The position numbers were made by a program, and so were the translations under genes. Below are positions 1 to 32,040 of a stretch of DNA of 43,184 bases, piece by piece. The stretch is from Neocallimastix sp. 'constans' (lineage: Eukaryota): positions 372,001 through 415,184 of the forward strand of contig JBODTK010000150.1 of assembly GCA_050613775.1 (NCBI GenBank), written 5' to 3'. Below the pieces are notes generated by a model. That model was given only the letters and a program-made list of their open reading frames with translations. It ran no database searches and had not been told where the DNA came from. How positions within the stretch are numbered: position 1 is the stretch's first letter; every line of letters starts with the position of its first letter.

Positions 1-338
1 TGCTTAAAGACCATATTTCTATTACCAAAGCGTTCGCTATAGCTGAAAAAGTTGATCGTTTATCTATTAAAAATAGTACTGAATATTATGATAAGACTCG
101 TTACAATCTCCTTAACTCTAAAAGTAATTTTAATAAGAACATTTCAAATGATTTTAACAAACCAAAAACCCACAAAAATGTATCTATAGAAAATCTCACT
201 AACAAGATGAAAGAAATGAAAATTAGTACTTGCTGGTTTTGTAGCAATGAAGGACATACCAAACGAAACTGTCCTAAATTATATTCTATATTGGAAAATA
301 ACCACAAGAAGTTTTATGAAAATTATTTAAACCACTAA
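1..338 (+). CDS. gag: Gag C-terminus with CCHC zinc knuckle (element 1)
   Basis: Manual translation gives CWFCSNEGHTKRNC; the frame ends at taa 336-338 just after slippery TTTAAAC 326-332. Confidence 0.8.
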   Translation, partial: LKDHISITKAFAIAEKVDRLSIKNSTEYYDKTRYNLLNSKSNFNKNISNDFNKPKTHKNVSIENLTNKMKEMKISTCWFCSNEGHTKRNCPKLYSILENNHKKFYENYLNH

Positions 339-3300
339 AAGGGAGTAGAAGCACTCCCATCGTCAAAAAAATTGCTTCAGTCTGCCATCGTCCCAAAACA
401 GTTGACTTAAAAGAGGATGATGATTATGAAGAAATTGCTGATTTCCAAGAAGGCACTACTACGGATTATTACGAAAATTTTGATGATGAGTCGGATGGTT
501 CCAAAGAATTGGATTACTTAGTAAATGTTATAAAGAGAAAGGCAAATCCTAAAGATGAAGAGACTAGTGACCAAAGAGGAAAGAGGGTTCACCGTAGTCT
601 AAGAGATGATCCTAAGCCAATAGTTACTCCAGGTTTACGAAAACAAAAAGAAAATCAATTAAGGGGAACATCGCGACCAGTCAAAAAGCCAACAACTCAA
701 TTACATCCTTCGATTATGGCTCAACCCAGAATAGAGAAAGAAAAGAGGATTGAGAAAGAGCTAAGAGATAAGGAAAGAGCTAGTACTAGTACTTCTGTGG
801 AAAATAATTAAAATAGTAATGTTAATATTATTAATGAAGAAACCTCTCAGGAAGGAAATAATTCTAAACAAACTTTAAATAAATTAATTCAAGAAAAATC
901 ATCAGAAAAGTCAACTGAAATTATGCCAACTAGAATTCCAAGAAGAATACAAATGCAAACTGATTGTGATAGTTATGACGTGATCAAAGATTTAAACTCC
1001 AGTAATTGCAATATTACATTTGGACAATTATTGGACGTTGCTCCAAAGATACGGTCTCAAGTATCACAAGGACTTAAATTAGAAAAGAATAATACTAAAA
1101 TTTCAGGTGCAGTGGATAATATGTGTGCTACTACAATAATAACGAACAATATAGATCATACATATAAAAGTAAACATCATGAACCACAAGAAGATGATAT
1201 TGCTATGGTTGATGTAATAGTAGATGGAGTTCGTGGTAAGGCTTTAATAGATTCATGTAGCAACTTAAGTATTATCACAAAGCAATTTTTAGATAAATTA
1301 CCTTATCAGTATGAACCTATAGGAGTTAGTGCAGGACGAATACGTTTAGCAACGATGAATGATGATTACTCAGGAGATGTGTTAATCAAAGTTCCCGTAA
1401 AAATTAATTAACTAGAACTACTTGTTACGTGTAGAATTATAGACAAGGAAGATCCATTCTATGATATATTAATCAAACTCAAAACTCAAATTGATAACCA
1501 ATTATTTATACATCCAATTAGATATAGTCTTTGTCGATTTAATGATCAAGGTTTAATTGAAGAAATTAAACCTATTAATAATGAATACGATGACGAAGAA
1601 AAATTATTGTGTGTAATCAAGGCATTGAATCACTAAGAAGCTAAGCAACAATTGAAAACGATTGAAGGATTACCACCCATAAAATATATATATGACACAG
1701 TTTTTCAAAGTACAATTAATTCAAATTATAGAGAAGCTATTACTAAATTACTTGAAGAATATATTGATATAATTGCAACTTCTTCTGAAGAATTAACACC
1801 TTCAGATTTATCACCACACAAAATTATTCTTAAGGAAGGTGTTAAACCTATTAAACAAAAATTTTATCGACTTCGTAAATTAAAAACAGATATCTTAAAA
1901 GAAGAATTAACCAAACTCATATATAAACGATTAATTGAACCTTCATGTTCAGAATGGTCATCACCAGTAGTACTTGTACCTAAAAAGAACGGTAAATGGC
2001 GCCTGTGTATTGACCATAGGAAAGTAAATGAAGCAACTAAGAAGGATTCTTATTCTTTACCAAATAGAGGAAATTTTTGATAGCTTAGATGGAGCAAAAA
2101 TCTTCTCAACATTAGATCTTTATTCCGGTTATCATCAAATATTAATGGATGATGATAGTGTTGAAATCACTACCTTTACAACTAAGTTCGGAAACTACCA
2201 ATTCAAGGTAATGCCCTTCGGTTTAACAGGTGCTCCAGCTACATTCCAAAGAGAAATGAACCGTATACTATTTCCCTTAATAGGAAAATGCATCTATAAC
2301 TTTATCGATGATATTTTAATCTACTCAAGAACTGAAGAAGAACACCTAGAACATCTTAAACAAGTCTTAGAAATATTCAAGGAACATAAGTTAAAAATCA
2401 ATAATGAAAAATGTTCTTTCATGCAAACTGAAGTAGAAGTACTGGGACATAAAGTATCCTCAGAAGGTTTAAGTCCATTGGAAAACAAAGTTAAAGCTAT
2501 TAAAGAATGGAAGGCTCCCTCTAACATTCATGAATTTTGATCATTTTTAGGAGCCATTGGATATTATAGAAATTTCATTAAGGACTTTGCAAAAGTTACT
2601 GCACCTCTATGCACTTTATTAAGAAAAGGTGTTAAGTTTGAATGGAAAAAGGAACAAGAAGAAAGTTTTAAAATTCTTAAGGAAAGATTAATCAATGCCC
2701 CAATATTAAGATTTCCTAGATTCGATAGAGAATTTATTATAAGAACAGATGCTTCCTATGATGGTATAGGCGGTGTGCTTTTACAAAAGGATGATGAAAC
2801 TGGAAAGGAACATCCGGTTCATTATATTAGTAGAAGTTTATCTAAATCGGAAAAGAATTATGGAATTACGGATCTAGAAGGTGCTGCTCTAATTTACTGT
2901 ATTAATAAATTAAAATCTTATATTATGGGAAATCCTAAGCAAACTATAGTATATACAGATCATAGACCATTAATCGGATTACTTAAAAGGAAGGAACCAC
3001 AAATTTCTCGTCATACTAGATGGTGTTTGACTGTCAGTATGTTAGGAATTGATTTACGATATGAAACTGGAAAGAATAATGTTGTCGCAGATGCTTTATC
3101 AAGAATGAAAAATGAAAAAGAAAAAGTTGTCTTAACAACACAAATTATCAAGGAACAAGATGAAAACCTGCTTTCAAGGACCATTAAGGAATTTATTGAA
3201 GAAAAATTTACGACAATTGATGGTGTGGACTACTTTGTTGATGGCAATAATTATAGAAAATTAGTTACAGATACAAAAGAAAAGTTTCAATTAATTTTTC

Positions 3301-4326
3301 AAGCACACAGTATAGGACACGAAGGCTATTACAAGACATACCAACGTTTGAAAAAGAGCTACTATTGGAACAATATGGTTAATGACATTAAGCGAATTAT
3401 AGGTAAATGTGAAAAATGTCAATTAAATAAATCTCAACCATACCCTGAACCAACGGAAGATAAACCAACTGAAGTGGAAGGACCATTTACACACTTAGGA
3501 TTGGACATTATAGGACCTCTAAGTAAAACCAGAAATAATAATCAATATATAATCGTTGTGGTTAATTATTTTACTAAATGGGTTGAGGCAGAGCCCACTG
3601 AAAATGTTACTTCTCAGGATGTGATAAAATTTTTTAATTAATGTATTTGCTCGACACGGTGTACCTCAAATTATCACTACTGATAATGGAACACAATTTA
3701 CATCAGATATGACAAAAATCTTCCTTGATTTATATGATGTATATGTTAAATTTATCACTTCATATCATCCTGAAAGCAATGGTTTAGTTGAGAATCGTAA
3801 TAAAGAAATTGGAAAATTATTACGATTACTAGGACAACAACACAAAGAATGGGATGAAATTTTACCATCTGCACTTTGGGCTTTAAGAACTACTAAAAAC
3901 TCAATCACCAACCTTTCAAGTTTTGAATTAGTTTATGGAAGGGAGGACCAACAACCTTTTGACATTGCTGCCAGACCAACTAAGGGTATAAATAAGTCTT
4001 CTGACGAAATTCTACTGGAAAAATTTGTATCACACTACCAATGGGTAATGGAGGCCGCGTCTAATATCAAAAATGCTTCGAAGTATTGGGCTACTAGGAG
4101 AGAAGAAAAGACCAGTATGAATCAAGCTAAAAGAATAAAACCAGGTGATTTAGTACTAGTAAGAAACTTTAATCGAACTAAATTAGAACCTTACTTTGTT
4201 GGACCTATGAAAGTGGTAAAGAAACAATTCAATACAGTCACTTTAGCTGATCCTGCTACTAATATACAAATGAATCGTAATGTTCATTTGAAAAATATTG
4301 TCAAGTTTAACTCAGCTTCTACCTAG
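330..4326 (+). pseudogene. pol: Pol polyprotein (PR, RT, RNase H, IN) with stops and frameshifts
   Basis: ORF fragments 923-1411 (LIDSCS), 2028-2540 (FIDDIL, MPFGL), 2775-3641 (TDH, ADALSR, HHCC, LDIIGP), 3709-4326 (YHPESNG..E, GPF-like PYFVGP). Confidence 0.93.
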
Positions 4327-4350
4327 CTTGAGTCTTAGCGGGGGGCATCT

Positions 4351-5135
4351 TAATACAGAATGAACAAATAATACTAATTGTGCTAGAATAATATAAATTA
4401 TTCTAACCTTATAGATTATTCTATTCTATATAATTGGAACTTTCCAATATTCTTCAAATATTACTAAATAGAAATCTTAAGTTAATAAATCACCAATTAA
4501 CCTATAATTCCTTTTTGAATTATCGATCCGATTCCATTATAATGTATTAAAAATCTTTAGCCAAGAATATTGTCCTTGCCCACTTAATATATTAATATTA
4601 TATTTCTTTTGTATTATGTTATATTGAAAATAATCAAATCTATTTAATTAGTTATTAAAATTTTCGTTATCAATTTAAATTTATTTTTAATTTCTAAATT
4701 TAACTAAACCACAATAAAATATTCTGTATAATCTCTTTATTTTTATTTTATATATATTAGTATTAAACTATTATTAAATAATTAATGATTCAATAATATA
4801 TAACTACTATTTATAACAATAATATTATTAACTAAAATAATAATTCAATTTCAATTTAAATGTTTTATTTATAAAAATAATTAGTAATTAGTTTATTAAA
4901 AAAATAGTTAGGCTTTACAAATTTTAATTTGATAAAAAAATATAAATACATGTAATTTTTAGTGAAATAAAATATAATCAATAACTTACTTTTATTAAAT
5001 AAATAATTATATTATTATTTTTCTTTTATAAATTTAAATAAATAAACATTGATTTTAAAACAAAATTATTTTTATTGTAATTTTATTATTTGTGTTAATT
5101 ATTATTATATTCCTAAAACTATATGAACCATACCA
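4351..5135 (+). repeat. 3' LTR of element 1 (family A, TA...CA termini)
   Basis: Follows the PPT; near-identical to 29794-30582. Confidence 0.9.
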
Positions 5136-5139
5136 GTTG

Positions 5140-6152: not shown

Positions 6153-6156
6153 GTTG

Positions 6157-6620
6157 TGATACGGGATGAATAAATAAATATAAAAATTAATAAATTTAGA
6201 AAAATAATAAAATAAAATTTAATTAAAGTTAAAATAAAAATTATATAGTTTAAAATAATAATAAACAATAAAAAAAAATTAAAAATAAATAAATTAAAAT
6301 AAGAATTATGAAGAAAAAAAATATTTTAGAGATAGAGAAAATAAATATAATTAAAAGGTCTTAGAGAGAGGCCTTAATTGAGATTTTTAGTTAGTAATAA
6401 TTAGTAAAATAAAATAATAAAAGTAATGTTAAAAATGTAATTAATGTAAAATTTAAATAATTATAAATAAAGTATTAAATAAATAATAATAAAATATAAG
6501 TTTTATTTAATATAATTATTGTGTTAAAATTATTAATTGTTTTATTAGAATATATTAATTTTCCTTAAATAAAATATTGCAAGTCCCATAAAAGTATACG
6601 ATTATAAAAATATCGTATCA
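6157..6620. mobile_element. Solo LTR C
   Basis: TGATACG...CGTATCA termini; TSD gttg/gttg. Confidence 0.82.
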
Positions 6621-6624
6621 GTTG

Positions 6625-7521
6625 TGTAAGAATCTATAATTATTTGCTAACAAATAATTATATTTTCTTAGTTAAGTTATTATAACTATAACTTTATTTA
6701 ATTACATATAATATTTATTAAATTTATTTAATTTAATTTTAAATATTCATTAATTTAACAAAATTTATTTAATTAATTTTAAATAATATATTTACAATAT
6801 GTTAAATTCTCTACTGTAACTAATGTATTTTGTATTGTATTTTATTCTGTATTTTATAATGTATTCTGTATTTTATAATGTATTCTGTATTTTATAATGT
6901 ATTCTGTATTTTATTAACTATTTAATTTTATATTTTTAATATAAGGATAAATTATATGATCGAAATATCTTTTATTATTTTATTCTTTTATTTTCGATCA
7001 TTAGATTGGAAAATCGGTTAATTAAGATTTTTTCCAATTACTTTTTAGAAGTAATCGGTTTTACTTAATTAATGCGATGATCGATATGGATAGAATATCG
7101 ATTGAAAACTTATCTAGGTTTTTCTATCTAATCTTTTCCTAGATAAGAGATTTGTTAAGATTAGAAAACCCTTTCTTATTTAACCTTATTTTCATAAAAA
7201 AAATATAAATAAGGCTCTTGAGTTCTCTTTGAGAAATCAAGAGTTATTATTATAAAAAACATAGTTATAATAGTAGCAATTTTATATTTTCAACTTTAAT
7301 AAATTAATAAAAATATTTTATTCAAAAACATATTTTTAAAATCAATTTATACAAACAATTCTTCTCTTACTTTTTGTGTTATTATTATAATTAATTTTAT
7401 AATAAACTCTACTCTAAAGGTAAAAAAATTTATTTTATTTTATTTTCTCAACTTAATGAATTAGTCGTTAAGTTGTAGTTAATAATTCTATTTTGAGTTA
7501 GTTTTTAATAGAATTATTACA
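6625..7521 (+). mobile_element. Solo LTR D (ENE/pseudoknot family)
   Basis: TGTAA...TTACA termini; 5-bp TSD agttg; reverse-complement relative of F, J, K; right end matches 29581-29790. Confidence 0.85.
7013..7165 (+). other. ENE-like U-rich internal loop plus H-type pseudoknot in LTR D
   Basis: ttaattaag-a-tttttt-cc...gg-tttt-a-cttaattaa; cttatctagg/cctagataag crossing ctaatctt/aagattag; covariation in other copies. Confidence 0.65.
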
Positions 7522-7524
7522 AGT

Positions 7525-8061
7525 TGATACGGTACCACACTAAAAACATTGTAAGGAATAGTTTTAGAAATTAGTTAAAGTAATAAATTAAAAATTAATA
7601 ATGATTGGTAGATAATTAAATAAGACTAAATAGTTAGATACATATTTTGATAATTCATTAATAATAAAACGAGGAGTTCTTTTTTATAATATAGGAAATA
7701 TATAATAAAGATACTTCAAAATAACAGGTTTACTAGTAGAAAATATAATAGTTTATAGAGTAATAAATATTAATTATTAAGTGTATAATTAGATAGTTAG
7801 TGAGAAAGATAATAATAAATATATAACTTGTATTTTTATATTTTTGTAAACATTGAGAATAATGTAATAAAAATAAATAAAGAAATAAGAATAAATAAAT
7901 AAAGACAAATCTTTACATTTAAATTATATATTTATATTTATACATTATGTGTTATTATTATATTTATTAGAATATATTATTTTGTTAATAATTCCCTTCT
8001 GACAACGTCCAAACAAATAAAATTATTTAGATACATCTTTAAATATAAAAGATACGTATCA
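7525..8061. mobile_element. Solo LTR E
   Basis: TGATACG...CGTATCA termini; related to 10350-10855 (shared tgatacggtacc start and ttagaatatattattttgt..aattccct..cgtccaaa motif). Confidence 0.82.
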
Positions 8062-8069
8062 TAGTTTTG

Positions 8070-8748
8070 TGTAATAATCTATTTATAATATACTAACTAT
8101 AACTAGATTATTAATATTTTAAGATATAAAAATTTATACTTAACTTTATATAGAGTTTATTATAAACACTAAATATTGATATAAACAAAAAGACTTTATT
8201 TCTTTTAATTTATTATATAGCATTATATAATAATAACTCTAATTTCTTTAATCAAAGAAATTTGAGTTCTTTTATACTTGTTTATTAATAATTATTTTAA
8301 TAGATGAAATTATTAAATAGATGTAATTATTAAATAAATAAAATAGATAAGATAAAGTTAACAAATCAAATAAAGGTATCTAATCTTAACAAATTGATAT
8401 TCAGGAAAAGATTAGTAGAAAAACCTGAATAACTTCGATTAATATTCTAATATATTAATCATCGTATTAATTAATAAAAACCCAATCATAATAATATTGG
8501 GGAAAAAATTAATTAACCGATTACTAAAATCTTATAAATTATCAACTAATTGAAATAATAAAATATAAATAATATTTTTAAGTAATTAATACATTACAAC
8601 AATTTTGTTTACATTATTTTTCAATATATTAATTTGGATAAATTAATATATTTTTTACATGTTAATAAATATTGAAATATAAATGAAATATAAATTAATT
8701 AAATAAGAAGATAGATTATTTTATAAGAAATAAATCTATATTCTTACA
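8070..8748 (-). mobile_element. Solo LTR F (ENE family, inverted)
   Basis: TGTAA...TTACA termini; TSD ttttg/ttttg. Confidence 0.83.
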
Positions 8749-8751
8749 TTT

Positions 8752-9770
8752 TGATAAAGAATGCCCAAATAATGTTCTTTTGGTTATTCATCTTAAATGA
8801 TTTATTTAACCCTTAAACAAATTATTTGATTCTTTATTCTTTTGGAACTTTCTATATTCTAATAAATTAATCTATATTCCTAATTAGTACAAATTAAATT
8901 ATACTAATTAAAAAAGTATATTTAATATTAATTCCTTATCTATGCTACCTTTATTATTCTTATCTATATTTTATTATTATTAAAATCCTTATCAATATTA
9001 TATAGTTTATTTTATCAATTTTCTTTATAGTTTATCAAAATCTTATCAATATTTCTTTTATTAATATTAAACTTATCAATATTAAATATTTCTTTGGAAA
9101 ATTCCAAATTAAAAATTGTATTAATGATTACTAATGAAAAATTAAACATAAAAGAAAATAGTTATATTATTATTATATGTTTTATTATAAATATTATATT
9201 ATAAATTTGATGAAATGATTATAAATTTTATATTAACAATTTAAATAATATTATTTTTCTAAACTTAGTAAAATTAAACTTTAGGATTAAATAAATATTA
9301 CTAAACCACAGAATTAACTTCTGTAAAATAAAAAAATTTGTCTTTTAAAATATATAATTAAGTAGATTAGTAATAAATAATTAGTAATAGATTAATATAT
9401 AAGTATTATTTATTATAAGTTAAATAATAATTATATTAATAATAAAAAAAATAATATAAAATATTTAATAATTAATTTTTATTATACAAAGAAATGGCTT
9501 TACCATTTCTATTATTTTAAAAAAAAAATATAAATAACAGTAAAAAAAAAAATTGTATTTTTTTATATGTTGTAATTTTAACATTGTAATTTTTAAATAA
9601 AAAAAATTAATAAAAGGATTATAAAAAATAAAATTTTAAAAGGTTATCTTGTTTATTTATTTTTTTTTTTTTTTTTTTGTTTATATTAATCTTTTATTTT
9701 TATTTTTATTATTGTTTTAATTTTATTTATAATTTTTGAATAATTTTTATAAAAACCCCGAACCAAACCA
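8752..9770 (+). mobile_element. Solo LTR G
   Basis: TG...CA termini; near-identical to 30587-32040; TSD gttt by reconstruction. Confidence 0.85.
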
Positions 9771-9773
9771 GTT

Positions 9774-10344
9774 TGATAAAGAATGAAAATTTAAAATTAA
9801 AAATAATTATAAAACGGAATTTAAAAATAATAAATTATTAAATTATAATAAAGTAATTAATTTTTAGATTATAAACATTTAAATTATAAAAATATTAAAT
9901 ATTTAAATAATACACAATTAATAATAATTAGATTAAAATAATATAAAATAAACAATAATTGTTTATTTAATTGTTTATTATTAATAGTTAATTTATTATT
10001 TATAAACAGAGTATAAATATAAAAATTAATATAAATAGAAATAAAAATTAATAGTTTTAAAAATTGTTCCTAATTAGCCATTATAAAAATTAGATAATAT
10101 TAATAATAATATTTTAAAATGATTATTTTTAATAAATTATAATTTTAATAAAACAAAATGTATTAATGAATCAATAACTAATTGATTTAATTATTTTAAG
10201 TTACTTAATAAAATATTAAAATAAAATTAAAATTACTTTTATCTTTTTTTTTTTATTAACTAGTATATCTAGTTATATTTGAACATGAGAATAAAGACTT
10301 TTAGTAAGAAATTACTAAATTAACTTTATTTTCAATCTGTTTCA
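9774..10344 (+). mobile_element. Solo LTR H
   Basis: TGATAAAG...GTTTCA termini; TSD agtt; start resembles 27205. Confidence 0.75.
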
Positions 10345-10349
10345 AGTTG

Positions 10350-10855
10350 TGATACGGTACCACCATAAATACCATAATTTAGTGAAACTTAGGTTAGGAA
10401 TTATTTGATAAAATCTTATTGGTTAATAATAATTTAATAATAATATATATAGTTAGTAAATAATAATAGTTTAAAGAATGGTTCTTTTATTAATATTAAT
10501 TTAGTTTATTAATAATTTAACCTATAAACAAGTTTATTAGTATAGTTTAGTGTAGTTTTACATTTAGTTTACATTAATAACATAAGAGATTTTAGTAATT
10601 GATTATATTTTATTGAATGATTTAATTATATTTTAACTAGTTAACAAATATTTATATTGATGATGTATTTTTATTGATGAATGATAATAAATAAATAAAA
10701 TAAATAAACTAAATATTAAAGTGTGAATATTATTATTGTGTGTATTATTCTATATAATATTAGAATATATTATTTTGTCAATTATTCCCTACTGTTATCG
10801 TCCAAATAAAATAAAATAAATATTGATATTGATGTTTAATAAAAATATCGTATCA
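10350..10855. mobile_element. Solo LTR E2
   Basis: TGATACG...CGTATCA termini; TSD gttg/gttg. Confidence 0.82.
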
Positions 10856-10859
10856 GTTG

Positions 10860-11251
10860 TGGTACAAGACCAATTGAAAAATGAAAATTAAATACGACTA
10901 AATTTACATAAAAAATAGAAAATCAAATTAATCCATAAAAGGATAAATTAAATTGAAATTTATATAATTTTTAATTTTATACTTTATATAAGTATAAAAT
11001 TAAAAATTATTAAGACTCTCTCTTTTCCACATATAACTTTATTAAATGTAAAAAATTAGATTGAATGACAATTGATCTAAATTGAGATTTCAATTGATCA
11101 AAAATAAAAATTTAATAAAAATTAAATAAACAATTTATAAAGTAGAATTTAAGTATTTAGTTATAATTTACAACTTTAGTGTGAATTACTTATTATTGTG
11201 AATATTAATATAATTAGATTTAAATTTTAAAAATTCATTTACATTGTACCA
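10860..11251. mobile_element. Solo LTR I
   Basis: TGGTACAA...TTGTACCA 8-bp terminal inverted repeat; 5-bp TSD agttg. Confidence 0.82.
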
Positions 11252-11258
11252 AGTTGTG

Positions 11259-13054: not shown

Positions 13055-13810
13055 TTGTGATACAGATTGGAATTCTTAAGCATAAAATTATTAGAAACCT
13101 TGAATAATATCTAACCTATTCAACAACAAATTAATAAATTAAAATTTGAAATTAAAATCATAATAAAAAAATTTATTTTAATTAAATTCTAAAACTCGAA
13201 ATTATACTTTAATTCTATTTTAATTTTTAGAATAATGAAATACTAATGTTAATTAATTTCTCTTTTTAATTAAAAGTAAATAGTTTGTAAACAATTATTA
13301 GGACGAGTGTTAGAATACTCGGTTATACGTTGTTTTTGAGTGTATTCAATAAGCTCATTTGCAACTCGTTTAGACGAATCTATTTTGTTAGAGACTGCGT
13401 AAAGGATTACTATAAAAGACGTAATCTAATCCCATATCTCTTCAACAGAGTGAGGTTGCAGTAAACGAGTTAACAACGGTTAATGCGCTTAGGTCACCGA
13501 AGGTCTAAGATTAAATATATAGTTTTAAAATTTTCTTTTAAGGGTTTACTTGTTCCCTTTTTGTTATATTAACACCGCCGGTTTTTTAATGGTTGTGAGG
13601 CAAAGGTGTTAATTAAAATAAAATTGTATACAAATACTACTACCTACAGTCGAAAGAATAATTAAAAAAAAAAAAAAAAAAAAATTTTTTTCTTTTTGCA
13701 AGAATAAATAAAAAGAAATAAGTAAAATAATTCATAAATTCATAAATTAAGATAAGCGAAAATATAAATTGTAAGGTTTCTTTTTAAAATTTATAAATAA
13801 AATAATAATA

Positions 13811-18200: not shown

Positions 18201-18212
18201 GGGCCGACGAAT

Positions 18213-20284: not shown

Positions 20285-21356
20285 TTGTGTTACGAAACAA
20301 TACTATATATTAATAATTTTTAAAGTCAAAAAAATATTTGTTAAGAATATATTTGGTTTTGATATAACTTGGTTGGAATGCTATAAACTAATAACTTCCT
20401 TATGATAATTAAATTTTATTTTATCAGTATTCATATAGAATTTTATTATATTTTTATTTTATTATTTTATTTGATTTTATTTAATAATATTTTTTTAATG
20501 AATGAAGTTATCAGATTATTAAAATATTAATAATCTTACGAAGATTATTTAAAACATTTAATTCACTATTCTTTTATACATAAAAAATAAACAATTAAAA
20601 AGTTATATAATAATAAATAAAATAATAAACAATTAAAAAGTTAGATAATAATAAATAAAAAATAAACAATTAATTATACTTTAAAAAGTATAAATTATAT
20701 TCAACAATTTTATTATTATTATTATTATTTAATAATAATAAATAATATATATTTATATTGTAAAAGGATTTTGAGGCGTATGATCATACTAAATAATGAT
20801 TAATTTGTTATGGTAATGAGGCTTATATAGCTCATCGAGTTATATCCTTTACAATATTATTTTATATTTTATATTTTTATTATTAAATTTATTATTTTAT
20901 ATTTTATATTTTTATTATTAAATTTATTATTTTATATTTTATATTTTTATTATTAAATTTATTATTTTATATTTTATATTTTTATTATTAAACTTATTAT
21001 TTTTATTTTATTTTTTTATTATTAAATTTAATATATATTTATATATATATAATTATGTTATATTAAGAATAATATTAAAAATGATTAATTAGAAAAATAA
21101 TTTTAACCAATTAAATTTATATATTGAACTATAAAAAGACAAATGTTAAAGAAATAATTTTAAAAACTCTCTCTTAAAAATTTTAGAAGAAATAAAACAA
21201 TAAAAATAACAGTAAGTCTTAAGAAGTGTTGGTTTTGATTTTGTTTGTGTTATTTGTTGTTCTTGATTTATTTTTAGGAGTTATAAATATTAATTGTTAT
21301 GAATATACAGTTCAAAATTATTAAATAATATTTTAAAATCCTGTAACATAAAATTT

Positions 21357-21373
21357 TGGCGAGCTATGCGGGA
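21357..21373 (+). promoter_or_regulatory. Primer-binding site (tRNA 3' end, Arg-like)
   Basis: TGGCGAGCTATGCGGGA, complementary to a tRNA ending ...GCUCG-CCA; the tRNA identity is an inference. Confidence 0.7.
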
Positions 21374-21748
21374 CCAATATTTGAATTGTATGAAAAGTAA
21401 TAATTAATAATTTATAATAGGTAATTAGATAGTAACATTAATTAAATTAAAAAAAAAAAAATTTTTTTTTGTGAAACCATAATTAGAATTTGATTGATAG
21501 AGAAAGATATAATAGATATTATATATAGTAATAGTAAATAGTAATAGTAATAAAAAAAAAAATAAAATAAATAGTGATAATAAATAGTGATAATAAATAG
21601 TGATAATAATAAGTATCAATATAGTAATAGTAATAATAAAAAGAATATAATAAAAAGAATAATAAAGAGTAATAGGAATAATATAGGTTTAATAAACAAA
21701 TAATATCATTATAAATAAATCAATAAAATAAGTAAATAATAATTAGAA

Positions 21749-22672
21749 ATGAAAATATTAGAATTAGAAAAATTATTACCAAGAATTAACGAAGACACTA
21801 ATGAAGTTGATACCTGGTACTATGAATTTACTAGACTGATGGCCCTTGCAGATATAACGAGCCAAAAGAGTGTCTATACTTGGGCTCTCGAATCCGTTGA
21901 TGGAAAACTGAGAGGAGCAATCCAAGAACTACACGAAGAAGACTCTCAGGAATATCCATCCATCAAAGAAATCAAAAAGGTTTTAGAAGAATAGTTGAGA
22001 ATAGCCCCACAGGAAAAGTGTAAAAAGCTCCAACAATTAAGAATTCAAAAAGGAGAATCAATCTCAAACTTCAACTGGCGATACAAGAAGCTGTATGATA
22101 GTCTATCTAAATTCTACCAGACATTCATCACTGTGGATGACTATGTAGAGTCTATAAAATTCAGGCCCTATGCAAGATCCCAAGTCATCACACAAAGATG
22201 CGAAGACCTAGAAGAAGCTTTTGAGGAAGCCGAACTAGCAGAACGAGCTGAAATCAACAAGACTTCCTCAAGAAGTACAGCTATCGTAATGACTACTTTA
22301 TTTAATAATAATTCCTTTTATCGAGAAAATGTCCACCCATTCAGGAAATTTGGAAGTACCAATCTAATTTCATATTATTATTCACAGAATCACAACCGAA
22401 ATCCAAGAAATGATTCTGCTAAGGGTTCTGACTATAGGAGAAAAATTCATAATGTACAGTCAAACCCACTAATTAACGATTTACCCAATTCTTCTAGTTA
22501 TGAGAAGAACATGAAATTCCATAACCTCCCTAACACATCCATCAAAAGATCAACGGTTTGCTATAGGTGTGGATTACAAGGACATTATTATCGTCAGTAC
22601 CCCTATTCCTTCAAAGAACTTGCTGAAATGGAGGAACGTAAACAAAATAATCAAGCTCTTTTAAACTTCTAG
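21749..22672 (+). pseudogene. gag: Gag (element 3), internal stop
   Basis: ORFs 21749-21994 and 21995-22672 are in the same frame; degenerate knuckle CYRCGLQGHYYRQY. Confidence 0.85.
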
Positions 22673-25600
22673 ATGGGAGAAGGGAAACTCCCATAAATCA
22701 AACCCGAAGTCAGAACTCTAGTCCTGAAGTCAATACGCAAGTCATCGCTGTAGCTACTCGGAAAAGCAACTTCTCATCCATAAGAATGAAGAAACTGTAT
22801 AACAAAAAGGGGAATATAAAGTCTCTCATAGATAACCCGTTCGGATAAATGTACCAAATAACAACCGAAACAATAGAAGTGTGACACAAGAAGATACTGA
22901 AATGAAAGAAGTTGAAGAAATTACAATCAATAATCACAAGGAAGTCGAAGAAACTGATCCCTCTGTTATAATCCAACCATCCATCACGAATAATACTGAG
23001 AAGCTAGAAGAAATCGATGTTTCAGTAATAGCCAATCCATCCATCAACAAAACTAAACGACTAGCTACCAAGGAAAGAGAAGAAAAAATTATACAGGATG
23101 CAGAAACAAACAATAAAAAAGGTAAACAGCGACATAAAGAAACAAAAACAGATGATGAAGTTCAAGAACTACCCAGCACCCGATTACGCAAGTAGAAAGA
23201 AGATACTCCCACTATGCTGGCTTCTCCTAAGAAGATTACATTACTCCATGGAAAGAAGAGCTATGACATATCAGACGATCTAATTAAATTAACTGCAAAT
23301 ATCTCTATTGCACAACTCTTAGATATAAGCCCAAGGCTGAGATCCGAGCTTACTAAAGCTTTAAAATTAAAAAGCCCTGAACTAGTTGAAGAAAACCCAG
23401 AAAAAGTTATGATGTCCGCGTTGACGAGGGATGATGTAGCTACTGCAGAATGTATTGTTGATAATGTTAAAGGAATCGCCTTTTTGGATACTTGCGCTAG
23501 TATAAACATCATCACTAGATCTTTCCTCAACAAATTAAAGAATGTTACTCCATCAGGCTTCTCCGATGATAATATTATATAAATATTCTCTAGCAAAAAT
23601 ATAATAATGGAAACGTGTAATCTGAGAGTCCAATTTGGTAACGTTCTCATTCAAGACAACTTCCGTATTATCGATCATGACATTCAAATCTTCGATATCT
23701 TAATAGGTTATCGTACCCTCAAAGATAACAATCTATTTATTAATCCTATTGACAATTTTTTGTGTCGAATGAATGAAGACGAAGAATGGTATAGAATCAC
23801 ACCACTACACAAATACAATTCTAACGACACTAATAAAAATAATACTTCTAAAGAAAACTCATCTAACAGTGATTCTCTCTTGTTCTGTTTAATTACGAAA
23901 TGTGATGATAACAATAATAAAGAAAAAATAAATCAAATGAATTCTGGAACTGATCCCACTATCAATGACGAAAAATCAAATATTATTCAAAAAATTATTA
24001 AAGAATCTCCAAAGGATAGCCGCCTTAAAGTTATCAAGCTATTTCGGAACTTTAAAGCTATTCTCGCTACTAGAATTGAAGAACTTGGTCCAACTAAGCT
24101 CCTTCCCCATAATATCACACTGGTGGAGAATGCCAAACCAATTAAACAGAAGTGTTATCGCCTATCGAAGGTCCAAGCGAAGGCTCTTAAAGAAGAAATT
24201 ACTAAACTCTTGAAGAATAAACTAATTGTTCCTTCCAACTCGCCTTGGTCCTTTCCCGTGATACTTGTTTTAAAGAAGAACAAAAAGTGGAGACTCTGTA
24301 TCGATTATAGGAAGCTCAATAATGTTACCATCAAAGATGCATATGCTCTACCTGTAATCGATGAAATATTATTTTCTATTGGAAACTCAGTTAAATACTT
24401 TACAATAATCGATTTATTCTCTGGCTTTCATCAAATCCCAATGAATGAAACCGACATCCCCAAAACCAGTTTCACTACCATGTACGGGAACTACCAATTT
24501 TTGGTCATGTCCTTTGGACTATGTAATGCCCCAGCTACATTCCAAAGGGAGATGAATAGAATCTTTTTTCCATTAATAGGTGTTTGTATGTTTGTGTACA
24601 TTGACGATCTTGTTATATTCTTTAAGTCTTTTGATGAACACATAAATGATATTATTAAGGTCTTCACAATTATTCGTGATAATGACTTAAAGATTAATTT
24701 CAATAAATGTCACTTCTTCAAACAAAAGGTCGAATTATTAGGGCATACTATCTCTACTCAAGGCATCTCTCCAATTGACGCGAAGGTTGAAGTCATCTCT
24801 AACTGGTTAGCCCCCAAGAATGTAAAACAATTACAATCCTTTCTTGGTGCCATTGGCTATTATCGTAAATTCATCCACAACTACTCATCCATCGCCAAGC
24901 CACTATACAAACTGCTTAAAAAAGGTATCTCTTTCGAATGGACGTCTGCACAAGAAGAAAGCTTCCAATCCCTTAAGGATAAACTCCTCTCTGCGCCAAT
25001 TCTCCAAATACCCGACTTCGATAAACCATTTTTGATTCGAACAGATGCTTCTTATGCTGGTATTGGAGGGGTACTTCTTCAAAAAGATGACAACAATGTC
25101 GAAAAGCCAATACATTACGTAAGTCGTTCTCTTAAGCCGGAGGAGGTTAATTATGGTATCACTGACCTCGAAGGCACCGCAGCTACATATTGCGTGAATA
25201 AATTCAAATCCTATAATTCTGGTAGTAAATTCAATACAGTATTATACACAGACCACAAACCTTTGGTTGGTCTTTTTAAAAACAAAGAACCCAACAACGC
25301 ACGACAAACACGTTGGATTATACTTCTCTCAATGCTGAACGTCAAGGTAATGTATGAACCAGGAAAGAAAAACGTAGTAGCAGATGCTCTTTCTCGTATG
25401 GAAACCGTAAACTACAAACCAATCGCCGCTTTAGTTACAAATCCTTCAACAATTAACATCACCGAAGACAATAGTTTACTCGGTAAATTTAAAGAAAACT
25501 TTATTACAATAGAAAATGAGAACTACTATATGGATAAAGAATCTCAAAACTTAAGGAAGATAATTGAAAATAATAATGACAAATAGATCTAGTATTAAAG

Positions 25601-26643
25601 GCTCACAGAGTAGATCATGAGGGCGTATTCAAGACGTACAATAGACTAAAACGTGACTATTACTGGACTAACATGATTTTGGATGTCAAATATATAGTAT
25701 CAACTTGCCATAGATGCCAGATCTTTAGACCACAGAGGACAAACAACCAAACCGAAGATATCCCAACAAAACCCGGACTCCCTTTCACGAAGGTTGGATT
25801 AGATATAGTCGGACCATTACCAAGGTCAACAAAAGGAAATTTATATATCATAGTCTTAGTTGATTACCTCACGAAGTGGGTTGAAGCTGAGGCTACTGAT
25901 AAAATTGAATCTGACAATGTTATATCCTTTCTTCCTAAGGTCTTTGCTCGTCATGAAATCCCAGAAGTACTTGTGACAGACAACGGTCCGCAGTTCCGTT
26001 CAGATAAAACAAAGTCTTTTCTTGATTTATACGGAGTATATGTTCACTTTACCAGTACCTATCACCCGGAATCCAATGGAGAAGTCGAAAATAGAAATAA
26101 AGAGATAGGTAAATATTTAAGATTACTATGTAATAATAACCAAGAAATATGAGATGATATGTTACTAAGTGCACTTTGGGCTTTACGCACTTGCAAAAAC
26201 GAAACAACAAAGTTTTCCAGCTTCGAATTGCTTTACGGTAGACGCAACTTACAACCATTCGAGCTAATGGTTAACTTAGATAAGAAAGAAGATTACGAAA
26301 GCAAAGACGAATTCCTCATTAGACGATTTACAAAACATTATAAATGGATCAACGAAGCCGTTAAGAATATCGAAACCGCGAATAAACTTTGGGAAGACCG
26401 CCGTAAACAAATGAAGAGATTAGGGCAAATTACAATCCAGGTGACTTTTTAATGATAAAACTCATCAATAGTTGAAAATTAGACCCATTTTTTGTTGGAC
26501 CCATGAAGATCATTAAAAAACAATTCAATACTGTTACTCTTTGCGACCCAATCACAAACCAAATTGCTGATCGCAGCGTTCATTTAAAAAACATAGTTCC
26601 ATACCGACTTTGCGAAATAGAGACTTCAAGGGAAGAAGCCTGA
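22666..26643 (+). pseudogene. pol: Pol (element 3) with several stops and frameshifts
   Basis: FLDTCAS, YIDD, TDAS, ADALSR, LDIVGP, TDNG, HPESNGEVE. Confidence 0.93.
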
Positions 26644-27204
26644 ACTTAGGAAACGGATTATGTTACGAAACAATACTATATATTAATAATTTTTAAAGTC
26701 AGAAAAATATTATTTTATATTTTATATTTTTATTATTAAATTTATTATTTTATATTTTATATTTTTATTATTAAATTTATTATTTTATATTTTATATTTT
26801 TATTATTAAATTTATTATTTTATATTTTATATTTTTATTATTAAACTTATTATTTTATATTTTATATTTTTATTATTAAATTTAATATATATTTATATAT
26901 ATATAATTATGTTATATTAAAAATAATATTAAAAATGATTAATTAGAAAAATAATTTTAACCAATTAAATTTATATATTGAACTATAAAAAGACAAATGT
27001 TAAAGAAATAATTTTAAAAACTCTCTCTTAAAAATTTTAGAAGAAATAAAACAATAAAAATAACAGTAAGTCTTAAGAAGTGTTGGTTTTGATTTTGTTT
27101 GTGTTATTTGTTGTTCTTGGTTTATTTTTAGGAGTTATAAATATTAATTGTTATGAATATACAGGTAAAAATTATTAATTAATATTTTAAAATCCTGTAA
27201 CAGT

Positions 27205-28155
27205 TGATAAATAATGAAATTTTAAAATTAAAATAAATAATAAATAATAAATTCTTATTTAACTTAACCCAAAATTAATTCTTTTAGAAATCCCAAAATC
27301 AAATTAAGAATATTAATTAAAAGAAATAAATGAAAATAATATAATAATAATTAAATTAATCATTAACAATTTTAATTAAAAACTAAAATAAATTAATAAT
27401 TAATATTCTTATAAAATTATAAACAAACAAAATAATAAACAAATTTAATAAATTGTAAATACTAAATAAACAAATTTATAAACATTTCAATATTAAAATT
27501 AAATAGTTGAATAATCTTTAAATTACCTTTTATTTAAAATAATTAATATTTTATTTATTTTATAACTCAACTTTTATAAACAAATTATAATTAAAACTTG
27601 TTTATTTTAACACTTTAGTGAAAAATAATTATAATATATAATATACTAAATCATAGATTAAAATTAATTAGACAGCCAATAATATTCAAGATAGAATTAA
27701 TTAATAAATTTAAAAGAAGAGAATGAAATAAAAGTTAAAAGAGAGAGTTTTTCTTGTTGTTTTAGAAATTCTAATTGAGAAAAAAATAATAGTTTTAGAG
27801 AACTTATAGTTTAGTTTAAATAATTAAGTAATTACTTATAGTTAAAGGATAAGAGTTGAATCCTATAATTATAAGTAAAATTATTATTAAGATATTAATA
27901 TAAATTGAATTATTAGAGATAGTTAATAATTATTATATTAAGAGGAATATAAAATATAATTGTAATAATTTATGTAAAATTAAATAAATAAATAAAAACA
28001 AGATTTAAAAAGAAATAAATAAATTTTATTATTTGTGTAAATTATTATTTATTATCTTTGAGTTGGAATATATTATTTTATAAATTCCCTATTTGCTCGA
28101 CCTCGTTATAATTAAATAAATAAAAATTTGATACTTTATTACTTATATTGTATCA
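27205..28155. mobile_element. Solo LTR block L, probably two LTRs (27205-27653 H-like; ~27659-28155 C/E-like)
   Basis: TGATA...TATCA outer termini; start resembles H and end resembles E; candidate junction aaatca|tagat|. Confidence 0.65.
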
Positions 28156-28743
28156 GTATTGGAACGTTACGTTCAGAAAAATATGAATTTCTTAATTTAA
28201 GAAAATAACCTAATCAAAAAAAAAAATTTAAATTATTTAAATTTATATTTTATTAGTTTATATGAATAAGTAATTAAATAATGATAGTTATTTAACAAAC
28301 AATTAAATTAAAGTATATTTTTAATTAAAAATTAGTATTTTTATTTATGTAAATAATAAACTAAATAGTTAAATAATTCTAAATTACTAACATTTCTATA
28401 TAATGTATTTAAAATAAATATTTTTAATTATTTTTTTAATATGTATTTAAAATAAATATTGTTTATTATTTTTAAGGTATATATAGTTAAAATATATTAA
28501 TTCAATTTATATTAACAATTAAATTGTATAAAAATTATAAAAAAAAAAAAATTGGAAAATAATCAAATAGTATAAAAATATTAAATTAAATTTTAAAAAC
28601 ATATATAAATAGGAAAATTCACAAGAATAAATTTTAGGAAAAAACTAATAATATTAATAAAAATAAAATAAAATTATTATCTATAAAAAATATATATATA
28701 TATAAAATTTTACATTTAATAGAGCAACTCGTCCCAAATTTTA

Positions 28744-28761
28744 TGGTGGAGAATCCGGGCG
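28744..28761 (+). promoter_or_regulatory. Primer-binding site (tRNA-Ala-like)
   Basis: TGGTGGAGAATCCGGGCG, complementary to ...UCUCCA-CCA. Confidence 0.75.
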
Positions 28762-28840
28762 TATGCTCTATGAAACATTATAAATCATTATACAAAAAAA
28801 TATATATATATATAACTTGTTATAAAATATTTATATAAAA

Positions 28841-28871
<31 letters not shown>

Positions 28872-28893
28872 AACATAAACTTAATAATACACT

Positions 28894-29468
28894 ATGTTGG
28901 ATGCTGCTAAAATCAAAAGAGAATTCCCACGCTTAGAAGATTATGGGAAAAATGTTCTCGAATGGGTGGATGATCTTAAGGAATACCTTCTTCTTTATGA
29001 TATTACAGAACCAAAGAAGGTATTCATTTGGGTACTTGCTGCTATAGAAGATGATGTTAAAGACGCCGTTAAAGCATTAGCTATTCGGAGAAATGGAGAA
29101 GAACGTTATCTCAAGTTCAGCGAATTCAGAAAGCGGTAGAAAGCTATCTAGAAATAACAGAGGGTGATAAATGGGCCATTTTACGAAACTTAATGATTGC
29201 AGAAGGTGAGTCATTAAAACAGTTTAACCACCATTACAAAAAATTATATCACAATCTTAATCGGTACTACCAGAAGTTAATTACCGTTAAAGAATACAAG
29301 GATTCTATTAGTTCTAGGGTTTTTCCGTGTTCTCAAGTATCTATTGCCAAGGTAGATACTTTAAAAGAAGCATATGAAATTGCTGAACTGGCGGAAACTA
29401 CCGAAAAAGAAATTCAAGAAAGAAATGAGGAATTACAACTAAAGAAAGATAATTTTAAAAAAGGATAA
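28894..29468 (+). pseudogene. gag: Gag fragment, frameshifted
   Basis: ORFs 28894-29139 and 29193-29468 resemble 21749-22672. Confidence 0.8.
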
Positions 29469-29580
29469 TGTTATTCAAATTATAAAAAAACAAAAGAGAA
29501 AATATTAGTAAGTAAAATTTCTATGAAAATAATATAAATATTCTTAATTCAGGAAGAGAGCAATTCAATAATTGGAAAGA

Positions 29581-29790
29581 AAATATTACAAAAAACATAT
29601 TTTTTAAACCAAATTTATCCAAATATTCCTTCTTTTACTTTTATGTTATTATTATAATTAATTTTATAATAAACTCAACAAAGGTATAATTTTATTTTAT
29701 TTTTATTTTATTTTCCTCAACTTAATGAATTAGTCGTTAAGTTGAAGTTAATAATCATATTAAGTAATAGCACTTAGTATGATTATTACA
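29581..29790 (+). mobile_element. 3' fragment of a family-D LTR
   Basis: Matches 7320-7521, including tcaacttaatgaattagtcgttaagttg. Confidence 0.8.
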
Positions 29791-29793
29791 TAT

Positions 29794-30582
29794 TAATACA
29801 GAATGAACAAATAATACTAATTGCGCTAGAATAATATAAATTATTCTAACCTTATAGATTATTCTATTCTATATAATTGGAACTTTCCAATATTCTTCAA
29901 ATATTACTAAATAGAAATCTTAAGTTAATAAATCACCAATTAACCTATAATTCCTTTTTGAATTATCGATCCGATTCCATTATAATGTATTAAAAATCTT
30001 TAGCCAAGAATATTGTCCTTGCCCACTTAATATATTAATATTATATTTCTTTTGTAATATGTTATATTGAAAATAATCAAATCTATTTAATTAGTTATTA
30101 AAATTTTCATTATCAATTTAAATTTATTTTTAATTACTAAAATTAACTAAACCACAATAAAATATTCTGTATAATCTCTTTATTTTTATTTTATATATAT
30201 TAATATTAAACTATTATTAAATAATTAATAATTCAATAATATATAACTACTATTTATAACAATAATATTATTAACTAAAATAATAATTCAATTTCAATTT
30301 AAATATTTTATTTATAAAAATAATTAGTAATTAGTTTATTAAAAAAATAGTTAGGCTTTACAAATTTTAATTTGATAAAAAAATATAAATATATGTAATT
30401 TTTTGTGAAATAAAATATAATCAATAACTTACTTTTATTAAATAAATAATTATATTATTATTATTTTTCTTTTATAAAATTTAAATAAATAAATATTGAT
30501 TTTAAAACAAAATTATTTTATTGTAATTTTATTATTTGTGTTAATTATTATTATATTTCCCAAAACTATATGAATCATACCA
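29794..30582 (+). mobile_element. Solo LTR A2
   Basis: Near-identical to 4351-5135. Confidence 0.9.
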
Positions 30583-30586
30583 GTAT

Positions 30587-32040
30587 TGATAAAGAATGCC
30601 CAAATAATATTCTTTTGGTTATGCATCTTAAATGATTCATTTAACCCTTAAACAAATTATTTGATTCTTTATTCTTTTGGAACTTTCTATATTCTAATAA
30701 ATTAATCTATATTCCTAATTAGTACAAATTAAATTATACTATTTAAAAAAGTATATTTAATATTAATTCCTTATCTATGCTACCTTTATTATTCTTATCT
30801 ATATTTTATTATTACTAAAAACCTTATCAATTGTCAAAAATTAAAGAAAAATTAATATTTGTTTAAATTTTTCTTAAAACTTATTTTTTAGTAATGAAAT
30901 TTAGGGAATTAAAAAAAATTAATTTTATTTATTTTTTTATTAAAATAAATAGTTATCGTAAATAATTAAATATAACTACGATTTTATAAATCGGGAAAAA
31001 TAAAAATGATTATAAGTTTTTTTTTTCGTTTTCTTCTTTTTATACTAACAATTTCACTAAAATTAGAAGTTATTAAAATTAAAATTAAATTTAAAAGTTT
31101 ATTGCATATAGTAGATTATTATTTTTTAATTCTGCTAAATGATTTTTTAATTTGTTTATTCAACTATTCATTAACTAAACTAAAATTTATTAATTACTAT
31201 TGATTCACTTATATAATTAAATATTAAGTTAAAACTATTAATTTTTTCATTAAATTTTATAAATTTAATTAATCCAATAACGGATTAATTCATTCACAGT
31301 ATAAGTATCGTCAGTTCTTGACATCAATATTATATAGTTTATTTTATCAATTTTCTTTATAGTTTATCAAAATCTTATCAATATTTCTTTTATTAATATT
31401 AAACTTATCAATATTAATTATTTCTTTGGAAAATTCCAAATTAAAAAAATTGTATTAATGATTACTAATAAAAAATTAAACATAAAAGAAAATAGTTATA
31501 TTATTATTATATGTTTTATTATAAATATTATATTATAAATTTGATGAAATGATTATAAATTTTATATTAACAATTTAAATAATATTATTTTTCTAAACTT
31601 AGTAAAATTAAACTTTAGGATTAAATAAATATTACTAAACCACAGAATTAACTTCTGTAAAATAAAAAAATTTGTCTTTTAAAATATATAATTAGGTAGA
31701 TTAGTAATAAATAATTAGTAATAGATTAATATATAAGTATTATTTATTATAAGTTAAATAATAATTATATTAATAATTAAAAAATAATATAAAATATTTA
31801 ATAATAATTAATTTTTATTATACAAAGAAATGGCTTTACCATTTCTATTATTTTAAGAAAAAAAATATAAATAACAGTAAAAAAAAAAATTGTATTTTTT
31901 TATATGTTGTAATTTTAACATTGTAATTTTTAAATAAAAAAAAATTAATAAAAGGATTATAAAAAATAAAATTTTAAAAAGTTATCTTGTTTATTTATTT
32001 ATTTTTTTTTTTGTTTATATTAATCTTTTATTTTTATTTA
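30587..32040 (+). mobile_element. LTR G2, with a nested insert and truncated at the Copia junction
   Basis: Near-identical to 8752-~9710. Confidence 0.88.
30832..31323. mobile_element. Nested solo LTR
   Basis: TGTCAA...TTGACA termini; 5-bp TSD tcaat; absent from the G copy at ~8995. Confidence 0.88.

What the first reader, a model, noticed from the sequence alone, without database searches (positions are those of the whole stretch)
1..32040. Polarised 'tape-recorder' array: about 20 LTR retrotransposons from many families integrated successively at one fixed site
Seen: the elements abut with spacers A|gttg|B|gttg|C|gttg|D|agt|E|tagttttg|F|ttt|G|gtt|H|agttg|E2|gttg|I|agttgtg|J|ttg|El2|gttgtg|K|ttg|El3|gt|L|gtat|M..D'|tat|A2|gtat|G2. 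Removing elements from left to right while holding a constant left flank TAGT gives a matching 4- or 5-bp TSD for B through El3 and for A2 (for example D agttg, E tagt, F ttttg, G gttt, H agtt, I agttg, J and K ttgtg). Every TSD starts at flank position 1-4, and many include the first 1-2 nt of the right-hand neighbour. Block L fits only tentatively, and M, D' and G2 have lost one end. Inference: each new element inserted next to a left-hand anchor and pushed older ones rightwards, giving a CRISPR-like chronological record. Established: yeast Ty3 integrates within a few nt of Pol III start sites. A stack this deep and with this many families at one site is not something I recognise as described.
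Basis: partly seen in the sequence, partly recalled or inferred. Interest (0 to 1): 0.93.

Follow-up and report, generated by a model that had tools for sequence, protein, structure and literature searches.

The report
Nineteen retrotransposons stacked at one spot
In a gut fungus, 19 jumping-gene pieces from at least a dozen families sit back to back, and the insertion scars of 13 in a row fit landings within four bases of one spot that pushed older copies aside, likely because they home in on a tRNA-type gene predicted to lie just outside the window.

Summary
The stack is real. Window 1-32039 (Neocallimastix) holds 19 Ty3/gypsy blocks separated by only 2-8 bases. With one fixed left flank, TAGT, 13 of 13 consecutive elements (B to El3) get a 4-5 bp target duplication starting at flank position 1-4; 14 of 16 testable blocks fit. 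Shuffled spacers never reached this (0 of 20,000; 0 of 3,000 strict), a fixed right flank explains at most 9, and insertion at random junctions reproduces it in 47 of 5,000 simulations. The three pol-bearing elements are 52-56% identical but lie in one gut-fungal clade. The anchor lies left of the window and was not found; no genome is held. No age gradient was measurable. The best reading is Ty3/DGLT-A-like tethering to a Pol III start site, where push-out tandems are already described (PMC5391098, PMC5006619). The integrases seem to lack the chromodomain that Ty3 uses. What is unusual is depth, family number and lineage, not the principle. Nothing suggests a CRISPR-like function.

The parts
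1..5135 (+). A: Ty3/gypsy element cut by the window start; broken pol (4 stops, 2 frameshifts), 3' LTR 4351-5135
   Evidence: Pfam RNase H and integrase; about 98% to family protein P0068; 98.5% to L001
5140..6152 (.). B: solo-LTR-like block, 4-bp TSD gttg, flank position 3
6157..6620 (.). C: solo-LTR-like block, 4-bp TSD gttg, position 3
6625..7521 (.). D: solo-LTR-like block, reversed relative to F, J, K; 5-bp TSD agttg, position 2
7525..8061 (.). E: solo-LTR-like block, 4-bp TSD tagt, position 1; the only block that fixes the first flank base
8070..8748 (.). F: solo-LTR-like block, 5-bp TSD ttttg, position 4
8752..9770 (+). G: solo LTR, same family as G2, weakly like the A LTR; 4-bp TSD gttt, position 3
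9774..10344 (.). H: solo-LTR-like block, 4-bp TSD agtt, position 2
   Evidence: contig piece starts exactly at 9774
10350..10855 (.). E2: solo-LTR-like block, 74% like E at its 3' end; 4-bp TSD gttg, position 3
   Evidence: contig piece ends exactly at 10855
10860..11251 (.). I: solo-LTR-like block, 5-bp TSD agttg, position 2
   Evidence: two contig pieces end exactly at 11251
11259..13054 (.). J: solo-LTR-like block of about 560 bp, 5-bp TSD ttgtg, position 4, interrupted by a nested LTR at 11309-12539 (TSD attaa)
   Evidence: uninterrupted form seen as loose ends at 11308 in 3 of 4 runs
13058..18947 (+). El2: Ty3/gypsy element; 5' LTR cut at 13296, integrase interrupted at 17297-17597, 3' LTR 18213-18947; 4-bp TSD gttg, position 3
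   Evidence: 98% to P0001 and L003
18954..20284 (.). K: solo-LTR-like block, 73% like J; 5-bp TSD ttgtg, position 4
20288..27202 (+). El3: Ty3/gypsy element; 5' LTR 20288-21348 with a nested LTR at 20339-20853 (TSD atatt), primer site after it, 3' LTR 26661-27202; 4-bp TSD gttg, position 3
27205..28155 (.). L: LTR-like block whose TSD fails; start weakly H-like, end weakly E2-like (70% each), possibly a fusion of two LTRs
28160..29579 (+). M: 5' LTR 28160-28736, primer site and broken gag related to the El3 gag; right part lost
   Evidence: 27% over 52 aa, E 5e-8
29580..29790 (.). D': last 211 bp of a D-family LTR, fused to M
   Evidence: 81% to D
29794..30582 (+). A2: solo LTR of the A family; 4-bp TSD gtat, position 3
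   Evidence: 96.5% to the A LTR, 14 substitutions in 789
30587..32039 (+). G2: G-family LTR with a nested LTR at 30832-31323 (TSD tcaat); right end lost where copia sequence begins

Best explanation
The region is a one-sided stack of 19 Ty3/gypsy elements and LTR remnants whose integration complexes were likely tethered to a host protein on a fixed site left of the window, most likely the Pol III machinery on a tRNA or 5S gene facing left. Step 1 (shown): staggered cuts of 4 or 5 bp all start at position 1-4 of one flank, with duplication length following family (5 bp in D, F, J, K and I; 4 bp in the other eight). Step 2 (shown by overlap, supported by simulation): each new element went between the flank and the previous one, copying the first one or two bases of its right neighbour. 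Step 3 (inferred): the anchor gene has an internal promoter, so it survives each insertion and resets the same target. Step 4 (inferred): LTR-LTR recombination collapsed most elements to solo LTRs and kept their duplications; later deletions and nested insertions damaged the right end. Step 5 (inferred): the tether is an ancestral trait of a large gut-fungal Ty3/gypsy clade and, without a Ty3-type chromodomain, probably uses another contact, as DGLT-A does.
For: 13 of 13 strict chain with a unique best flank; mirror model 9; random-junction model 47 of 5,000. Duplications are unlike each other (gttg, tagt, ttttg, gttt, ttgtg, gtat), so position, not sequence, is conserved. All 19 blocks meet at 70 spacer bases in 32 kb, while three LTRs of other families landed inside LTRs with AT-only duplications. 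A, El2 and El3 are 52-56% identical in RT/RNase H but fall in one clade of 104 rows with SH-aLRT 100 that includes three Orpsp1 proteins. The 4-base window equals that of Ty3, 1-4 nt from the Pol III start (PMC5911963). The commonest register (6 of 13) reads [..C]TA toward the anchor, matching the C and A enriched at positions 4 and 6 of Ty3 sites (PMC6673722); this is post hoc and weak. Push-out tandems at tRNA genes are described for TRE5-A (PMC5391098).
Against: No tRNA, Rfam match or B-box-like motif in the window, and no locus with an anchor was obtained. The integrases end shortly after the C-terminal domain; the family profile stops at residue 1443 of 1547 of the Ty3 polyprotein, so the chromodomain that sets the Ty3 site (10.1101/2021.07.27.453949) seems absent. 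Most duplications are 4 bp, not the 5 bp of Ty3 and Tj1. No measurable age gradient. L and M..D' do not fit. Only E distinguishes flank TAGT from an LTR end plus GT.
Confidence: 0.7

Rival explanations
1. The stack is one-sided, but the anchor is not a Pol III gene: a protein bound to another fixed sequence, or to the end of a founder element further left, sets the cut.
For: Everything shown here concerns a fixed flank, not its nature. A flank of CA+GT (an LTR end) needs only one base change in the right duplication of E; its best unbroken chain is 8. The Ty3 chromodomain seems absent.
Against: All base-precise LTR-retrotransposon targeting seen in the papers read is at Pol III genes (Table 1 of PMC5911963). 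If LTR ends were anchors, the 18 ends inside the stack should also attract insertions and break the chain.
Confidence: 0.2
2. Elements prefer junctions between existing LTRs and went in at any junction, so left-to-right order is not time order.
For: Nine of 16 blocks show their duplication in the present sequence and so give no order on their own. The a that starts the D, H and I duplications could be the last base of the left neighbour. No age gradient.
Against: Every informative overlap points one way (D on E, F on G, G on H, J on El2, K on El3, El3 on L). Simulated random-junction insertion with the observed cut offsets gave the full chain in 47 of 5,000 runs and 12 or more in 70.
Confidence: 0.07
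3. The array is an assembly artefact or a chance reading of AT-rich repeats.
For: No listed contig piece bridges a junction by 31 letters on both sides, and only 9690-11950 was laid.
Against: Misjoins happen at shared repeats and would not join unlike families through 13 self-consistent duplications. Block ends coincide with contig ends in other runs.
Confidence: 0.03

Closest known systems
Ty3 and its sigma solo LTRs (Saccharomyces cerevisiae)
   Same: Ty3/gypsy order RT-RNase H-integrase; best solved relative of the family profile (7q5b, E 6e-162); 4-base integration window fixed to a flank; both orientations occur (D against F, J, K).
   Different: Mostly 4-bp duplications; no sign of the C-terminal chromodomain; 12-16 families share one site; no stack of this depth in the passages read; Pol III anchor not seen here.
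DGLT-A of Dictyostelium discoideum
   Same: Ty3/gypsy element without chromodomain, 13-18 bp upstream of tRNA genes, many solo LTRs; several targeted elements can share one tRNA gene (PMC5006619, PMC6101501).
   Different: Amoeba host, 20 copies in all; relationship to the present clade not tested because no DGLT-A sequence was at hand.
TRE5-A tandems upstream of Dictyostelium tRNA genes
   Same: New copy goes between the gene and the old copy and forms tandems without nesting (PMC5391098).
   Different: Non-LTR elements, about 47 bp upstream, wider window; tandems of two in the passages read.
Tj1 of Schizosaccharomyces japonicus
   Same: Ty3/gypsy, 1-10 bp from Pol III starts, fixed orientation; ten families cluster with tRNA genes (PMC4600332). 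Here the four coding elements A, El2, El3 and M also share one orientation.
   Different: Self-primed, 5-bp duplication; clusters are centromeric and not described as duplication-chained stacks in the passages read.
Plant tandem LTR-retrotransposon arrays
   Same: Head-to-tail LTR elements.
   Different: One family sharing internal LTRs from a single insertion (PMC11899658, abstract); here unlike families, each with its own duplication.
CRISPR arrays, integrons, Drosophila HeT-A/TART/TAHRE telomeres, tandem Tn7-like islands (all recalled, no call)
   Same: One-sided growth that keeps order of arrival.
   Different: Different enzymes and anchors; no evidence here that the host reads or uses the record.

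Membership tests
Ty3/gypsy LTR retrotransposons (Metaviridae) | pol order protease-RT-RNase H-integrase | tested here: met
   Pfam on A, El2, El3; profile match to Ty3 Gag-Pol
Ty3/gypsy LTR retrotransposons (Metaviridae) | LTRs with TG...CA ends, short inverted termini, 4-6 bp duplication | tested here: met
   the A family starts TA instead of TG in both copies and in L001
Ty3/gypsy LTR retrotransposons (Metaviridae) | Non-coding blocks are LTRs of coding elements | tested here: inconclusive
   Direct for A2 (96.5% to the A LTR), weak for G and G2; the rest rest on termini and duplications only
Pol III-targeted Ty3-like elements (Ty3, Tj1, DGLT-A) | Insertion within a few bases of a fixed position | tested here: met
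   13 of 13 at flank positions 1-4
Pol III-targeted Ty3-like elements (Ty3, Tj1, DGLT-A) | The fixed position is upstream of a tRNA, 5S or other Pol III gene | not testable with these tools
   Anchor outside the window; no genome held; searches gave no flank
Pol III-targeted Ty3-like elements (Ty3, Tj1, DGLT-A) | Element protein binds TFIIIB or TFIIIC | not tested
   No host factor sequence was obtained
Ty3 proper (S. cerevisiae) | Integrase tail with vestigial chromodomain contacting Brf1 | tested here: not met
   Integrases stop about 10-20 residues after the last conserved strand; profile ends at Ty3 residue 1443 of 1547. Placing the chromodomain in that tail uses a recalled integrase length; no fold was predicted.
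Plant-type tandem LTR arrays | One family with shared internal LTRs inside one duplication | tested here: not met
   Neighbours are unlike and each has its own duplication
CRISPR-like memory locus | Host acquisition machinery and use of the stored pieces as guides | not testable with these tools
   No RNA data examined; the pieces are inserted by their own integrases (inferred from family-linked duplication length)

The most novel reading that the evidence does not exclude
A whole gut-fungal clade of dozens of Ty3/gypsy families shares a base-precise tether that is neither the Ty3 chromodomain contact nor a Pol III gene, and Neocallimastix genomes carry many such deep stacks that record the order in which families invaded.
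Probability: 0.15. Interest if true: 0.85.

Novelty: new variant of a known kind. Interest (0 to 1): 0.62.

Why it matters
If the anchor is a Pol III gene, base-precise tRNA-gene targeting extends to an early-diverging fungal phylum and to a whole clade of families 52-56% identical in RT, which makes the origin and conservation of the tether testable by comparison. Chained duplications give an order of arrival for 13 or more families at one locus without any clock, and many stacks could be merged into a genome-wide succession. A site-specific native integrase would also be a candidate safe-harbour tool for anaerobic gut fungi, whose LTR elements a 2026 review still calls largely uncharacterised (PMC13728883).

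Tried and rejected
No whole genome is held, so the contig could not be extended. ARAGORN, Rfam and a recalled B-box motif found nothing in the window; five hits of a relaxed intron-aware ARAGORN run were long AT-rich spans and were dismissed. A pattern for the A/G LTR start gave 1 locus in metagenome contigs, an internal A fragment without flank, and 0 in viral and prokaryote contigs. Protein scans gave 0 and 1 loci in viral contigs (the one is 54% GC and 33% identical) and 14 loci in prokaryote bins, mostly short AT-rich internal regions; none holds a tRNA gene. Searching five of these bins with 5900-13800 gave only low-complexity matches of 69-79%, and their tRNA hits were not followed. Contigs of 4 of 24 listed runs were laid on 9690-11950 only; lack of bridging pieces proves nothing. 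Summed depths were not used as copy numbers. Age tests were underpowered: El2 LTRs 2 of 239, El3 LTRs 6 of 496, A and A2 against L001 5 and 7 of 220 lean the expected way; stops (A 4, El2 0, El3 4) do not. C matching the El3 LTR in reverse was treated as low-complexity noise. No structure or complex was predicted. Ten literature searches found no description of such a stack or of targeting in Neocallimastigomycota; Navaratna et al. 2024, the one paper on these elements, is not held, so it and its supplements may already mention clustering.
Full report
Setting. The window is very AT-rich. An exon at 35289-35666 is 100% identical over 126 residues to an mRNA guanylyltransferase named for Neocallimastix californiae, so the host is an anaerobic gut fungus of that genus. 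No whole genome is held.

Anatomy. From 1 to 32039 lie 19 blocks separated by 17 spacers of 2-8 bases, 70 bases in all. A, El2 and El3 carry Ty3/gypsy pol remains on the + strand, M carries a 5' LTR, a primer site and a gag related to that of El3. Thirteen blocks look like whole solo LTRs, and D' and G2 are cut. A/A2 (96.5%), G/G2 (97.5%) and D/D' (81%) are family pairs; D, F, J, K and E, E2 are alike at about 73-75%, which gives 16 families by an 80% rule and 12 by looser grouping. D and D' are reversed relative to F, J and K. Three further LTRs sit inside J (11309-12539), the El3 5' LTR (20339-20853) and G2 (30832-31323), each with an AT-rich 5-bp duplication. At 32040 G2 breaks into a minus-strand copia element, so the far side of the original site is lost.

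The duplication chain. With a constant left flank TAGT, 14 of 16 testable blocks get a 4- or 5-bp duplication; L and M..D' fail. None of 20,000 spacer-order shuffles reached 14 (maximum 11), and the mirror model with a fixed right flank reaches 9. In a stricter test, where the cut position of each element must also explain the following spacer, B to El3 form an unbroken chain of 13 of 13; TAGT is the only one of 256 flanks that does this (next best 8), and 3,000 shuffles gave at most 9. Cuts start at flank position 1 (E), 2 (D, H, I), 3 (B, C, G, E2, El2, El3) or 4 (F, J, K). All four members of the D/F/J/K group and I make 5-bp duplications, the other eight 4-bp. L may be a fusion of an H-like and an E2-like LTR (70% each, weak), which would explain its failure.

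Is order real? Nine of 16 blocks show their duplication in the present sequence and give no order alone. The informative overlaps all copy the right neighbour. A simulation that inserted the same elements with the same offsets at random junctions gave the full chain in 47 of 5,000 runs; one-sided insertion gives it by construction. Order is therefore well supported but not proven, and the first flank base rests on E alone. Divergence does not add much: El2 LTRs differ at 2 of 239 bases, El3 LTRs at 6 of 496, A and A2 differ from L001 at 5 and 7 of 220, A has 4 stops, El2 none in the matched parts, El3 4. Same-family copies at opposite ends differ by only 1.3-1.8%, so the stack formed within a span too short for these tests. 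The right end is the most rearranged, as expected if oldest, but El2 and J are damaged too.

Independent data. Eighteen of 24 listed public runs, from 12 studies, hold part of 4300-13600. Contigs of four runs were laid on 9690-11950. Pieces begin or end exactly at 9774, 10855 and 11251, and loose ends at 11308 in three runs continue with the J sequence that follows the nested insert, so the boundaries and the nested insertion are supported. None of the 32 listed pieces (of 14,790) bridges a junction by 31 letters each side. Two weak hints of other stacks: an E2-type end followed by taattt and TG in run X1 (8 records), and a join of a G-type end to an E2-type start with 24 letters on the short side in X1 and X5.

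The elements. In a quick tree of 121 RT/RNase H rows (3 from the window, 118 of the 120 hits, which was seeded with El2 and so is not an unbiased sample), A, El2 and El3 are 52-56% identical, fall on three separate branches, and share a clade of 104 rows (SH-aLRT 100) with three Orpsp1 proteins, apart from 17 long-branch rows, 16 of them named plant, algal or animal. No tRNA-targeting reference element was in the tree. The best solved relative of the family profile is Ty3 Gag-Pol, but the match ends at residue 1443 of 1547 while using the profile to position 1225 of 1231, and the window integrases stop soon after their last conserved strand. The chromodomain that acts as a ruler in the Ty3-TFIIIB structure (10.1101/2021.07.27.453949, passages) therefore seems absent; its place in that tail uses a recalled integrase length.

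Mechanism. A fixed position with changing sequence means a tether, not a sequence preference. The known base-precise tethers for LTR elements are Pol III factors: Ty3 at 1-4 nt from the start, Tj1 at 1-10 bp, DGLT-A at 13-33 bp from the mature tRNA (PMC5911963, passages; PMC4600332, passages). DGLT-A lacks a chromodomain and binds Tfc4 instead (PMC5006619 and PMC6101501, passages). An internal promoter would survive each insertion and reset the target. The commonest register reads [..C]TA toward the anchor, like the C and A at positions 4 and 6 of Ty3 sites (PMC6673722, passages); this was noticed after the fact. The anchor itself was not seen: no tRNA, Rfam family or B-box in the window, and no search returned a flank. 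I put Pol III tethering at 0.7, another fixed anchor at 0.2, unordered junction targeting at 0.07, artefact at 0.03.

Novelty. Push-out tandems at tRNA genes are described for TRE5-A (PMC5391098, passages) and noted for dictyostelid elements in general. Plant LTR tandems are a different thing (PMC11899658, abstract). PMC7175516 (passages) gave nothing relevant. Ten searches found no stack of this depth and no targeting report for this phylum, but Navaratna et al. 2024 was seen only as a reference. Unchecked notes of this scan describe a two-element stack 16 bp from a tRNA gene in a probable gut fungus and LINE stacks in other fungi; these are leads only, and they suggest the habit is widespread. 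Verdict: a real, unusually deep and clean multi-family stack, a new variant of a known kind, with the decisive anchor still unseen.

Noticed in passing
window 11309-12539: Nested LTR inside J that carries a stretch 77% like the internal region (about 43044-43184) of the Ty3/gypsy element at the right end of the window; a family that does not use the stack junctions.
   Followed up: partly
window 20339-20853 and 30832-31323: Two more nested solo-LTR-like inserts with 5-bp AT-rich duplications, inside the El3 5' LTR and inside G2.
   Followed up: partly
window 4351-4352 and 29794-29795: The A-family LTR starts TA instead of TG in both window copies and in L001, yet A2 has a normal 4-bp duplication.
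   Followed up: partly
window 17297-17597: About 620 bp of the El2 integrase is replaced by 301 bp of AT-rich sequence that begins TG.
   Followed up: no
window 32040-34200: Minus-strand Ty1/copia remnant (gag, zinc knuckle, protease, start of integrase) joined directly to the cut end of G2.
   Followed up: partly
window 35286-38631: Intron-rich host mRNA guanylyltransferase gene on the minus strand, about 3 kb from the stack's outer end.
   Followed up: partly
window 39590-40900: Decayed reading frames that look like a MULE-type transposase (by eye, recalled motifs; not searched).
   Followed up: no
window 41420-43184: Another Ty3/gypsy element (gag, protease) of a different lineage, cut by the window end.
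   Followed up: partly
L003-L014: Gut-fungal Ty3/gypsy contigs, one 98% identical to El2, are binned into prokaryote genomes from gut samples: likely contamination of those bins.
   Followed up: partly
window 21356-21372 and 28744-28760: El3 and M have different primer-binding sites (by recall tRNA-Arg-like and tRNA-Ala-like), so families sharing the site do not share a primer.
   Followed up: no
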